DNA from: Escherichia coli
Lineage (GTDB): Bacteria > Pseudomonadota > Gammaproteobacteria > Enterobacterales > Enterobacteriaceae
Assembly: GCF_030384885.1 (NCBI RefSeq)
Contig: NZ_CP128613.1
Reading direction: 5' to 3' (one strand)
Length of the DNA: 64,000 nucleotides
Part shown: positions 61,382-61,442 of the stretch, one piece after another
Layout: each line of letters starts with the position of its first letter
How positions within the stretch are numbered: the stretch's first letter is position 1
Made by a program: the position numbers and the translations under genes
Notes under the pieces: generated by a model
What the model was told of the DNA's origin: nothing
Database searches by the model: none
Seen by the model: the letters and a program-made list of their open reading frames with translations, nothing else

Positions 61382-61442
61382 GAACAGAACGCAGGATCAT
61401 CCTTTATTAATATTTTTTCCTTTTCAATCATGCGTTCTGTTC
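61382..61442. repeat. 12-bp perfect inverted repeat (gaacagaacgca / tgcgttctgttc) separated by 37 bp
   Basis: Seen directly in intergenic space between traD-like and pilS-like genes. Confidence 0.85.

What the first reader, a model, noticed from the sequence alone, without database searches (positions are those of the whole stretch)
61382..61442. 12-bp perfect inverted repeat flanking a 37-bp AT-rich spacer upstream of the pilin genes
gaacagaacgca … tgcgttctgttc (perfect 12/12) bracket a 37-bp spacer about 270 bp upstream of the pilS-like gene. This is too long-looped for a typical terminator. It may be an operator for a dimeric regulator or a site for a site-specific recombinase.
Basis: seen in the sequence. 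Interest (0 to 1): 0.35.

Follow-up and report, generated by a model that had tools for sequence, protein, structure and literature searches.

The report
Conserved hairpin repeat upstream of pilin genes
The 12-bp inverted repeat is real and is kept in one lineage of a known mobilizable genomic island of E. coli, Salmonella and Klebsiella. It never inverts and is not the transfer origin; it most likely forms a plain RNA stem-loop beside the promoter of a small, unannotated RNA, so it is a minor regulatory detail.

Summary
GAACAGAACGCA (61382-61393) and TGCGTTCTGTTC (61431-61442) are 12/12 complementary (15/16 if extended), with a 37-bp, 76% A+T spacer, 270 bp before pilS.

The locus belongs to a ROD21-like (EARL) mobilizable island: MobQ relaxase, traD, the repeat, pilS, pilV.

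- **Copy number and orientation:** the block is single-copy in 525 of 5,426 complete E. coli genomes. In 53 sequenced loci (37 haplotypes) the spacer has one orientation and varies from 36 to 45 bp.
- **Distribution:** more distant islands (Citrobacter, Cedecea, Pluralibacter, Brenneria, Pectobacterium) lack the repeat.
- **Pairing:** arm changes are mostly G·U-compatible on the + strand only (96.4% of cells paired, against 90.6% on the − strand). Klebsiella shows three compensatory changes.
- **Neighbours:** the right arm overlaps the −35 box of the best predicted promoter. That promoter would drive a covariation-supported RNA of about 128 nt that ends at an intrinsic terminator.
- **Transfer origin:** the likely oriT lies elsewhere, at about 60403-60520.

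Best reading (about 0.35): a + strand stem-loop in traD read-through RNA. An operator for the adjacent promoter is the main rival (0.27). An invertible or recombinase site is effectively excluded. Interest is low to moderate.

The parts
61382..61393 (+). Left arm of the inverted repeat (GAACAGAACGCA)
   Evidence: Variable at 4 of 12 columns among 33 E. coli/Salmonella haplotypes. The changes A8>G, C9>T and A2>G give G.U pairs on the + strand.
61394..61430 (+). Spacer or loop: 37 bp, 76% A+T, T-rich on the + strand. The first and last 3-4 nt (GAT/ATC) extend the stem to 15/16.
   Evidence: Length is 36-45 bp across 53 loci, always in the same orientation. Identity to Klebsiella and Escherichia sp. 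MOD1 is 70-81%.
61431..61442 (+). Right arm of the inverted repeat (TGCGTTCTGTTC). Its last 2 nt are the first 2 nt of the predicted -35 box.
   Evidence: Identity is 11-12/12 in Klebsiella, MOD1 and the ROD21-type Salmonella loci. The overlap with the -35 box is seen.
61347..61381 (+). Conserved left flank (TTGATATCTAATTATTATCTGTTATCTATATAAAAG). It is the most conserved piece of the block; its function is unknown.
   Evidence: Only 3 of 35 columns vary among 33 haplotypes. Identity to Klebsiella and MOD1 is 89-97%.
61441..61469 (+). Predicted sigma-70 promoter P_R: -35 TCGACC (TTGACC where 61442 is T), 17-bp spacer, -10 TATCTT, with a transcription start near 61476.
   Evidence: It is the top-scoring + strand candidate in the window, EcN, three Salmonella-type loci and MOD1, using my own approximate position-weight-matrix scan. 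Both hexamers are invariant among 33 haplotypes. The consensus scan did not list it.
61482..61538 (+). Long hairpin (61482-61507 pairs with 61513-61538), the 5' stem-loop of the candidate small RNA.
   Evidence: RNAalifold predicts 24 pairs, 7 of them with compensatory changes. 0 of 500 shuffles reach the whole-structure covariation score.
61573..61602 (+). Intrinsic terminator: GGCAAAGA / GAAA loop / TCTTTGCC followed by T6.
   Evidence: Folding and the alignment fold. Present in every related locus, with different stem sequences in distant genera.
61013..61317 (+). traD (a homologue of RSF1010 mobC). It is frameshifted in this window: the A-run at 61120-61125 has A6 where relatives have A7.
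   Evidence: No terminator lies between its stop codon and the repeat.
61713..62270 (+). pilS-like type IVb major pilin gene
   Evidence: Homologues carry the Pfam PilS/Bundlin domains.
62323..63759 (+). pilV-like pilus tip adhesin gene (Shufflon_N domain only)
58888..60369 (-). MobQ (MobA/MobL) relaxase gene
60403..60520 (+). Candidate oriT of the island: a near-invariant block with a hairpin at 60488-60504, followed by TAGGTGGGCATT.
   Evidence: alignment A3, including a compensatory stem in K. oxytoca and Cedecea; an exact 25-mer from this block was found in 65 metagenome contigs; the adjacent relaxases in those contigs go down to 59% identity; same layout as the RSF1010 oriT.

Best explanation
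The repeat encodes a lineage-specific stem-loop on the + strand, with a 12-15 bp stem and a U-rich loop of 29-45 nt. It lies in the traD-pilS intergenic region of a ROD21-like (EARL) mobilizable island.

No terminator separates it from traD, so it is transcribed as the untranslated tail of traD read-through RNA. It sits directly against the promoter of a small structured RNA of about 128 nt, which ends at an intrinsic terminator 110 bp before pilS.

The most likely role is an ordinary RNA-level one. The hairpin would protect or define the 3' end of traD mRNA and mark a processing boundary between that message and the downstream small-RNA/pilS unit.

Shown here: the repeat, its conservation, its single orientation, its tolerance of loop-length change, and the strand-specific pattern of substitutions.

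Inferred, not shown: that the region is transcribed, and what the hairpin does.
For: 1. Conservation. The repeat is present in all 53 loci of the E. coli/Salmonella/Klebsiella lineage. In the most diverged members the arms are kept better than the loop and the right flank. In K. oxytoca the arms match at 23/24, against 30/43 for the spacer and 19/38 for the right flank. MOD1 matches at 22/24 and K. pneumoniae at 20/24.

2. Pairing on the + strand. 96.4% of cells pair as + strand RNA, and 18 of 30 haplotypes have no broken pair. On the - strand 90.6% of cells pair and only 8 of 30 haplotypes are unbroken; 90.0% of cells are Watson-Crick.

3. Type of polymorphism. The three common internal polymorphisms (C61390T, A61389G, C61442T) all give G.U pairs on the + strand only.

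4. Compensatory changes. Klebsiella shows three: C:G>U:A within the arms, and G:C>A:U and A:U>U:A in the 2-bp inner extension. Only 3 of 500 shuffles reach three such pairs, and 0 of 500 reach the covariation score.

5. Loop tolerance. Loop length varies from 36 to 45 nt through T-run slippage and small indels, without loss of the arms. A hairpin tolerates this.

6. Folding. RNAalifold places the repeat as one of three consensus helices of the + strand RNA. The single-sequence fold has a z-score of -5.5.

7. Transcription context. No terminator-like site lies between the traD stop codon and the repeat.
Against: No transcript data were available, so transcription through the repeat is inferred only.

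On the 36-haplotype alignment the covariation is indistinguishable from shuffles (249 of 500). The significant signal comes from two Klebsiella sequences on an alignment whose structure RNAalifold chose itself.

Counted as events, G.U-compatible changes against G.U-incompatible transitions are 5 against 2, which is not significant.

Within E. coli and Salmonella the arms are the most polymorphic segment of the block: 9 of 24 columns vary, against 3 of 35 in the left flank.

The loop is unusually long for a stabilising hairpin.

The very high conservation of the left flank, and the overlap of the right arm with a -35 box, are not explained by a simple RNA hairpin. Both point instead to a DNA-level role.

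Islands that lack the repeat have no equivalent hairpin at this position, so the hairpin is not a general requirement of the locus.
Confidence: 0.35

Rival explanations
1. The arms are DNA binding sites (an operator or upstream activating sites) for a regulator of the adjacent promoter P_R. The right arm would be occupied at about -45 to -34 and the left arm at about -94 to -83. The regulator would repress or activate the small RNA, and indirectly the pilin genes.
For: The right arm overlaps the -35 hexamer of the best-scoring promoter in the intergenic region, in E. coli, Salmonella and MOD1.

That -35 box is non-consensus (TCGACC) in the lineage carrying the repeat. Relatives without the repeat have a consensus TTGACA. 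This is what dependence on an activator would look like.

The right arm and the left flank are the best-conserved pieces in deep comparisons. The island family encodes DNA-binding proteins, including an H-NS-like protein and the winged-helix protein SEN1990 (PMC10655114).
Against: Arm-to-arm spacing varies from 36 to 45 bp, which includes non-integral numbers of helical turns.

Eight of the 12 paired positions tolerate substitution, and only 8 of 30 haplotypes are perfect palindromes.

The motif has no second copy in the island or the window. No match to a known regulator's consensus was found (inspection from memory only). P_R itself is only a prediction.
Confidence: 0.27
2. The repeat has no present function. 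It is a chance or historical quasi-palindrome in A+T-rich intergenic DNA, possibly kept similar by template-switch correction, and it simply rides along with the conserved promoter region.
For: One such repeat per few windows is expected by chance, and a second 12-bp repeat with a 37-bp spacer lies inside an ORF in the same window.

Within E. coli and Salmonella the arms evolve at least as fast as their surroundings.

The repeat is absent from distant islands, which otherwise keep the promoter, small RNA and terminator.
Against: In K. oxytoca the arms match at 23/24, while the adjacent spacer and right flank have fallen to 50-70% identity. There are three compensatory changes in Klebsiella. 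Disruptive changes are rare singletons, whereas the common polymorphisms preserve pairing.
Confidence: 0.18
3. The hairpin forms in single-stranded DNA of the transferred strand during mobilization. If the + strand is the one nicked at the candidate oriT, the repeat lies about 0.9 kb into the leading region. There it could act as a signal for complementary-strand priming or early expression in the recipient.
For: G.T-tolerant pairing on the + strand fits DNA as well as RNA. The layout relaxase(-) / oriT hairpin plus nick-like box / mobC-like gene(+) is the same as in RSF1010, which would place the repeat in the first DNA to enter the recipient.
Against: The nicked strand is inferred by analogy only. 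The stem is far shorter than known single-strand promoters or priming sites. It shows no resemblance to known ssi or Frpo elements (comparison from memory only).
Confidence: 0.08
4. The repeat is an intrinsic terminator for - strand (antisense) transcription. On the - strand the hairpin is followed directly by UUUUAUAU.
For: The - strand fold is -20.9 kcal/mol and is followed by TTTTATAT. The TATAAAA next to the left arm is invariant in every haplotype, including Klebsiella.
Against: The loop is 37-45 nt. The common polymorphisms become C.A mismatches on the - strand, including at the base pair next to the U-tract; only 8 of 30 haplotypes are unbroken. No convincing - strand promoter or gene needs terminating here.
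Confidence: 0.05
5. The repeat is a site for a site-specific recombinase, that is, an invertible switch upstream of the pilin genes.
For: It is an inverted repeat near a pilV gene of the shufflon-adhesin family, and the island carries a tyrosine integrase.
Against: Only one orientation is seen, in 525 E. coli genomes and in 53 extracted loci. The segment is only 36-45 bp. No sfx-like sites were found. The only recombinase seen in related loci is the P4-type integrase next to tRNA-Asn.
Confidence: 0.02

Closest known systems
Stabilising or processing stem-loops in bacterial 3' untranslated and intercistronic RNA (for example REP-type hairpins)
   Same: A stem of 12-15 bp lies downstream of a stop codon with no U-tract. 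Pairing is conserved through G.U and compensatory changes, and the loop tolerates change.
   Different: It is single-copy, not a dispersed repeat family. The loop is very long (29-45 nt). Transcription and any effect on RNA stability are untested.
Operators or upstream activator sites that overlap a -35 box (class II type positions)
   Same: The right arm spans about -45 to -34 of the predicted promoter P_R, and the -35 box is non-consensus.
   Different: The half-sites are 49-57 bp apart centre to centre with variable spacing. The arms are polymorphic. No cognate protein and no second site were found.
Invertible promoter switches and shufflons (fimS with FimB/FimE, hin/hix, the R64 Rci/sfx shufflon)
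   Same: Inverted repeats near pilus genes, and a pilV gene of the shufflon-adhesin family.
   Different: No second orientation, a segment roughly ten times too short, no sfx sites, and no invertase nearby.
MOBQ-type oriT (RSF1010/R1162): an inverted repeat followed about 8 nt later by the nick site
   Same: It is an inverted repeat in the mobilization module of a MobQ element.
   Different: RSF1010-type oriT repeats have loops of about 3 nt next to a conserved nick box. A much better candidate with exactly that layout, and near-invariant sequence, lies at 60403-60520 between the relaxase gene and traD.
ROD21 / EARL family of excisable asn-tRNA islands (Pina-Iturbe et al. 2018, PMC6035254)
   Same: The gene set is the same: MobA/MobL relaxase, TraD, type IV pilin and a pilus-related protein. 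In related loci a P4-type integrase lies next to tRNA-Asn.
   Different: The papers read here do not describe the intergenic repeat, an oriT position or a small RNA.

Membership tests
Intrinsic (Rho-independent) terminator | G+C-rich stem with a short loop (about 3-8 nt) | tested here: not met
   The stem is 12 bp, but the loop is 37 nt (29 nt with the inner extension). The terminator scan does not list it.
Intrinsic (Rho-independent) terminator | U-tract immediately 3' of the stem | tested here: not met
   On the + strand the stem is followed by GACCAGUAAUCUG. On the - strand it is followed by UUUUAUAU, but the common polymorphisms break the - strand stem.
Invertible DNA switch or shufflon | Both orientations of the segment between the repeats occur in populations or assemblies | tested here: not met
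   There is one orientation in 525 E. coli genomes and in 53 loci. Raw read data were not available.
Invertible DNA switch or shufflon | A cognate invertase and its recombination sites nearby (for example Rci and sfx) | tested here: not met
   sfx-like matches are at chance level, and none lies in 61-64 kb. Related loci carry only a P4-type integrase next to tRNA-Asn.
Palindromic operator of a dimeric regulator | Two half-sites at a fixed, short spacing | tested here: not met
   The spacer is 36-45 bp and varies continuously in length.
Palindromic operator of a dimeric regulator | Half-site sequence conserved more strongly than its surroundings | tested here: inconclusive
   This holds in the deep comparisons. 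The opposite is seen within E. coli and Salmonella, where 9 of 24 arm columns vary.
MOBQ oriT | Short-loop inverted repeat followed by a conserved nick box, co-conserved with the relaxase | tested here: not met
   This is not the layout at 61382-61442, and the repeat is absent from islands with relaxases of 58-69% identity. The layout is met at 60488-60517 instead.
Dispersed repeat or MITE (REP, ERIC and similar) | Many copies per genome; target-site duplication | tested here: not met
   There is one place per island and none elsewhere in 5,426 E. coli genomes or in plasmids. No flanking direct repeat abuts the arms.
Known RNA family (Rfam 15) | A covariance-model match | tested here: not met
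   In 60000-62400 there are only chance-level microRNA or small-RNA matches with E > 0.3, and none overlaps the repeat.
Structured RNA hairpin under selection | Pairing maintained by compensatory and G.U changes beyond controls | tested here: inconclusive
   On the 13-sequence alignment, 3 pairs change on both sides (3 of 500 shuffles reach this) and 0 of 500 reach the covariation score. On the 36-haplotype alignment there is no excess (249 of 500).
ROD21-like (EARL) genomic island (the context) | MobA/MobL relaxase, TraD, type IV pilin and a pilus-related gene; P4-type integrase next to tRNA-Asn | tested here: met
   The relaxase, traD, pilS and pilV are in the window. The integrase and tRNA-Asn are seen in homologous E. 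coli loci. The family is defined in PMC6035254. The window ends before the integrase end of the island.

The most novel reading that the evidence does not exclude
The roughly 130-bp block (conserved left flank, repeat and promoter P_R) would be a lineage-specific regulatory module. Its hairpin or operator would gate a previously undescribed island-encoded small RNA found across EARL islands. That RNA would in turn control pilS/pilV, the pilin and adhesin that a mobilizable island lacking its own secretion system might use together with a helper plasmid's pilus machinery.
Probability: 0.1. Interest if true: 0.5.

Novelty: new member of a known kind. Interest (0 to 1): 0.22.

Why it matters
The repeat itself matters little. 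At best it is one more cis-acting hairpin or operator in the regulatory DNA of a known family of mobilizable islands.

The value lies in what the check revealed around it. The traD-pilS spacer of ROD21-like islands is not empty. It holds a promoter, a covariation-supported small RNA and a terminator, conserved from Escherichia to Pluralibacter. A near-invariant block with the RSF1010 oriT layout lies next to the relaxase gene.

None of the ROD21/EARL papers read here maps either feature. Both are directly testable, and both bear on how these islands are mobilized and how their pilin genes are controlled. The islands are carried by about 10% of complete E. coli genomes and by S. Enteritidis.

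Tried and rejected
**oriT at the repeat.** Rejected. A far better candidate lies at 60403-60520. The RSF1010 oriT sequence I recalled from memory was confirmed at 100% identity in IncQ plasmids, with the same gene layout.

**MITE or dispersed repeat.** Rejected. The block is single-copy in E. coli genomes and absent from plasmids.

**Inversion switch.** Rejected.

**attC site, sigma-54 promoter with enhancer-binding sites, sigma-E promoter, LexA, Fur, ArcA, PhoP, PurR, IHF, Fis, MarA boxes.** I compared these with consensus sequences from memory only. None matched convincingly, so I claim nothing from them.

**Leader peptide (ORF 61534-61662, MTVVITNVVF...).** Rejected. The start codon and reading frame are not conserved in K. 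pneumoniae or in distant relatives.

**Tandem duplication creating the left flank and P_R.** Not supported. The local alignment score was reached by 119 of 500 shuffles.

**Second promoter in the left flank (TTGATA-16-TATCTA).** Its -10 box lacks the conserved final T in all lineages, and it scores low. Left open.

**Outer helix enclosing the repeat in the MFE fold.** Its right-hand side varies without compensation. Rejected.

**Anti-Shine-Dalgarno reading of the UCCUUU loop motifs.** The CC is not conserved in three haplotypes. Not pursued.

**Equivalent hairpin in islands lacking the repeat.** None found (z about 0).

**Literature.** No description of this intergenic region, an oriT position or a small RNA in the ROD21/EARL papers.

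Full report
**1. The observation**

The sequence shows GAACAGAACGCA at 61382-61393 and its exact reverse complement TGCGTTCTGTTC at 61431-61442. They are separated by 37 bp (76% A+T), and the right arm ends 270 bp before the ATG of a pilS-like gene. The repeat extends to 15/16 complementarity. The arm sequence has no other exact copy in the window.

On its own this is weak evidence. Perfect repeats of at least 12 bp with spacers of 3-60 bp are expected 0.3 times per window, and 27% of shuffles contain at least one. The window holds five. One of them has the same 37-bp spacing and lies inside an ORF, so it is probably chance.

**2. Context**

The locus is part of a ROD21-like (EARL) island, and the chromosomal flank is E. 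coli. The gene order is:
- MobQ relaxase, 58888-60369 (− strand)
- traD, 61013-61317 (+ strand), a homologue of RSF1010 mobC; frameshifted here by A6 in place of A7 at 61120-61125
- the repeat
- pilS, 61713-62270
- pilV, 62323-63759

The same arrangement occurs on the chromosome in 525 of 5,426 complete E. coli genomes at 90-99% identity. In those loci a P4-type integrase and tRNA-Asn lie beyond pilV. The family and its gene set are described in PMC6035254 and PMC10655114. Those papers do not map an oriT or describe this spacer.

**3. What the repeat is not**

*Not a dispersed element.* A 101-bp query centred on the repeat hits only those same 525 genomes, about once per genome. It hits no plasmid, apart from one 393-kb record that carries chromosomal genes.

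*Not invertible.* Every E. coli hit is colinear over at least 80% of that query. All 53 loci I extracted (37 haplotypes from E. coli, Salmonella, Klebsiella and gut metagenomes) have the T-rich spacer in the same orientation. No sfx-like sites are present.

*Not the oriT.* The block at 60403-60520, just upstream of the relaxase gene, is nearly invariant even where the relaxase is only 58% identical.
- It contains a hairpin (60488-60504) whose stem is replaced by compensatory changes in K. oxytoca and Cedecea.
- The hairpin is followed by TAGGTGGGCATT, which matches 8 of 12 positions of the RSF1010 nick region.
- A 25-mer from the block occurs in 65 metagenome contigs, next to relaxases down to 59% identity.
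- The RSF1010 oriT lies in the same place, between mobA/mobB and mobC. The exact nick position is from memory.

**4. Phylogenetic distribution**

A PilS-based scan of one genome per species found islands in Citrobacter, Cedecea, Pluralibacter, Izhakiella, Brenneria, Affinibrenneria and Pectobacterium. None carries the repeat. None has an equivalent hairpin between traD and the downstream promoter (z about 0).

TraD-based look-ups filled in the intermediate distances. The repeat is present wherever TraD is at least about 70% identical: E. coli, several Salmonella lineages including the ROD21 type, K. oxytoca, K. pneumoniae and Escherichia sp. MOD1. It is therefore a lineage-specific feature. 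It belongs to a block of roughly 130 bp (61347-61480) that the distant islands lack.

**5. How the repeat evolves**

*Shallow comparison.* Among 33 E. coli/Salmonella haplotypes the fraction of variable columns is:

| Segment | Variable columns |
|---|---|
| Arms | 9 of 24 |
| Spacer | 8 of 37 |
| Right flank | 8 of 38 |
| Left flank | 3 of 35 |

The arms are thus not specially protected at this depth.

*Deep comparison.* Here the arms are kept better than the loop and right flank. K. oxytoca keeps 23/24 arm positions, against 30/43 for the spacer and 19/38 for the right flank.

*Spacer length.* It ranges over 36, 37, 38, 39, 41, 43 and 45 bp.

*Type of substitution.*
- The three common polymorphisms (C61390T, A61389G, C61442T) and two rare ones give G·U pairs on the + strand.
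- T61431A opens only the innermost pair.
- Truly disruptive changes are rare.
- As + strand RNA, 96.4% of cells pair and 18 of 30 haplotypes are unbroken. On the − strand 90.6% pair and 8 of 30 are unbroken. Only 8 of 30 haplotypes remain perfect DNA palindromes.

*Covariation.* Klebsiella contributes three compensatory changes. On the 13-sequence alignment only 3 of 500 shuffles reach that number. On the 36-haplotype alignment, however, covariation is not above shuffles (249 of 500). Counted as events, the G·U bias is 5 against 2, which is not significant.

**6. What lies next to the repeat**

*Promoter.* The best-scoring + strand promoter in the spacer is TCGACC-17-TATCTT (61441-61469). Its −35 box begins inside the right arm. 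It becomes TTGACC in the C61442T haplotypes.
- It is the top candidate in the window, EcN, three Salmonella-type loci and MOD1.
- In MOD1 a 6-bp deletion still leaves a 17-bp spacing.
- It is not the top candidate in Klebsiella.
- This scan uses an approximate matrix of my own. The tool's consensus scan did not list the site.

*Candidate small RNA.* Downstream of the promoter come:
- a 24-pair hairpin (61482-61538) with 7 compensatory pairs
- an A/U-rich single-stranded stretch
- an intrinsic terminator (61573-61602)

No shuffle out of 500 reaches the covariation score of the whole structure.

Distant islands have the same plan with a consensus TTGACA promoter, a different 5' hairpin and compensatory terminator stems. 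This is a candidate small RNA of about 128 nt, or a leader. It has no Rfam match and is not mentioned in the ROD21 literature searched.

*pilS promoter.* pilS has its own plausible promoter, TTGCCA-16-TATAAC, at 61650-61677.

**7. Interpretation**

The data favour a hairpin formed by the + strand over a protein site that needs both arms:
- loop length is free to vary
- most arm positions tolerate change
- the tolerated changes are the ones that keep G·U pairing on the + strand
- the few double changes are compensatory

No terminator separates traD from the repeat, so the simplest carrier is traD read-through RNA. I therefore commit, at about 0.35, to an RNA stem-loop in the traD 3' region that stabilises or delimits that message next to the small-RNA promoter.

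The main rival (0.27) is an operator or activator site for that promoter. It rests on the −35 overlap, the weak −35 box and the strongly conserved left flank, none of which the hairpin reading explains.

The remaining readings are:
- a functionless quasi-palindrome (0.18)
- a hairpin in the transferred single strand (0.08)
- a − strand terminator (0.05)
- a recombination site (0.02)

**8. Verdict**

The recombinase idea is not supported, and the dimer-operator idea is disfavoured.

The repeat is a new but ordinary cis-element of a known island family, so interest is low to moderate. The neighbouring oriT candidate and the conserved small-RNA candidate are the more useful leads.

Noticed in passing
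window 60403-60520: A near-invariant non-coding block lies upstream of the relaxase gene. Its hairpin (60488-60504, ACACTGC/GTA/GCAGTGT) is replaced by a compensatory stem in K. oxytoca and Cedecea. It is followed by TAGGTGGGCATT, which resembles the RSF1010 nick region. This is the likely oriT of ROD21-like islands, and the papers read here do not map one.
   Followed up: partly
window 61476-61602 (promoter 61441-61469): A candidate small RNA or leader of about 128 nt sits between traD and pilS: a 24-pair 5' hairpin with 7 compensatory pairs, an A/U-rich single-stranded stretch and an intrinsic terminator. The same plan occurs in islands of Citrobacter, Cedecea, Pluralibacter and metagenomes, with a consensus TTGACA promoter. 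It has no Rfam match.
   Followed up: partly
window 61607-61624: The box CATCCGTCTGTCAGATAG (core CCGTnnnTCRG) lies just after the terminator. It is conserved upstream of pilS from Escherichia to Brenneria and Pectobacterium, even where the surrounding sequence is unalignable. Its function is unknown.
   Followed up: no
window 61650-61677: A promoter-like site, TTGCCA-16-TATAAC, lies about 35 bp before the pilS start codon. It is conserved in the E. coli, Salmonella and MOD1 loci and is a possible promoter for pilS itself.
   Followed up: partly
window 61120-61125: traD is frameshifted in this window: the A-run has 6 A where E. coli CI5 has 7, and the gene is 305 bp instead of 306. This is either a pseudogene or a homopolymer sequencing error.
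   Followed up: yes
window 47371-47431: A second perfect 12-bp inverted repeat (TAAAATATCTTT / AAAGATATTTTA) has the same 37-bp spacer. It lies inside the 616-aa ORF at 46832-48682 in the island. It is probably chance in A+T-rich coding DNA.
   Followed up: no
window 61534-61662: A 42-codon ORF (MTVVITNVVF...) has a good Shine-Dalgarno sequence and reads through the terminator. Its start codon and SD sequence are sequestered in the long hairpin. The ORF is not conserved in K. pneumoniae or in distant relatives, so it is probably not a leader peptide.
   Followed up: partly
L013 (Pluralibacter gergoviae) 1369-3549; L012 (Cedecea) 586-5617: The module is rearranged in two genera. Pluralibacter has two tandem pilS paralogues, and the upstream unit is only partly duplicated. 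Cedecea has the order relaxase, pilS, traD, pilV.
   Followed up: no
L001 (CP088875.1) and L010 (JAGZKI010000065.1): Two records look mislabelled. A 393-kb E. coli 'plasmid' carries chromosomal genes (zinT, msrPQ, hiuH) next to the island. A contig binned as a Streptococcus parasanguinis MAG carries this enterobacterial island module.
   Followed up: no
L003 (E. coli 29A20CPO013) 4682-5910: An IS2 element is inserted between traD and the conserved left flank, about 30 bp upstream of the repeat. It leaves the repeat and everything downstream intact.
   Followed up: yes
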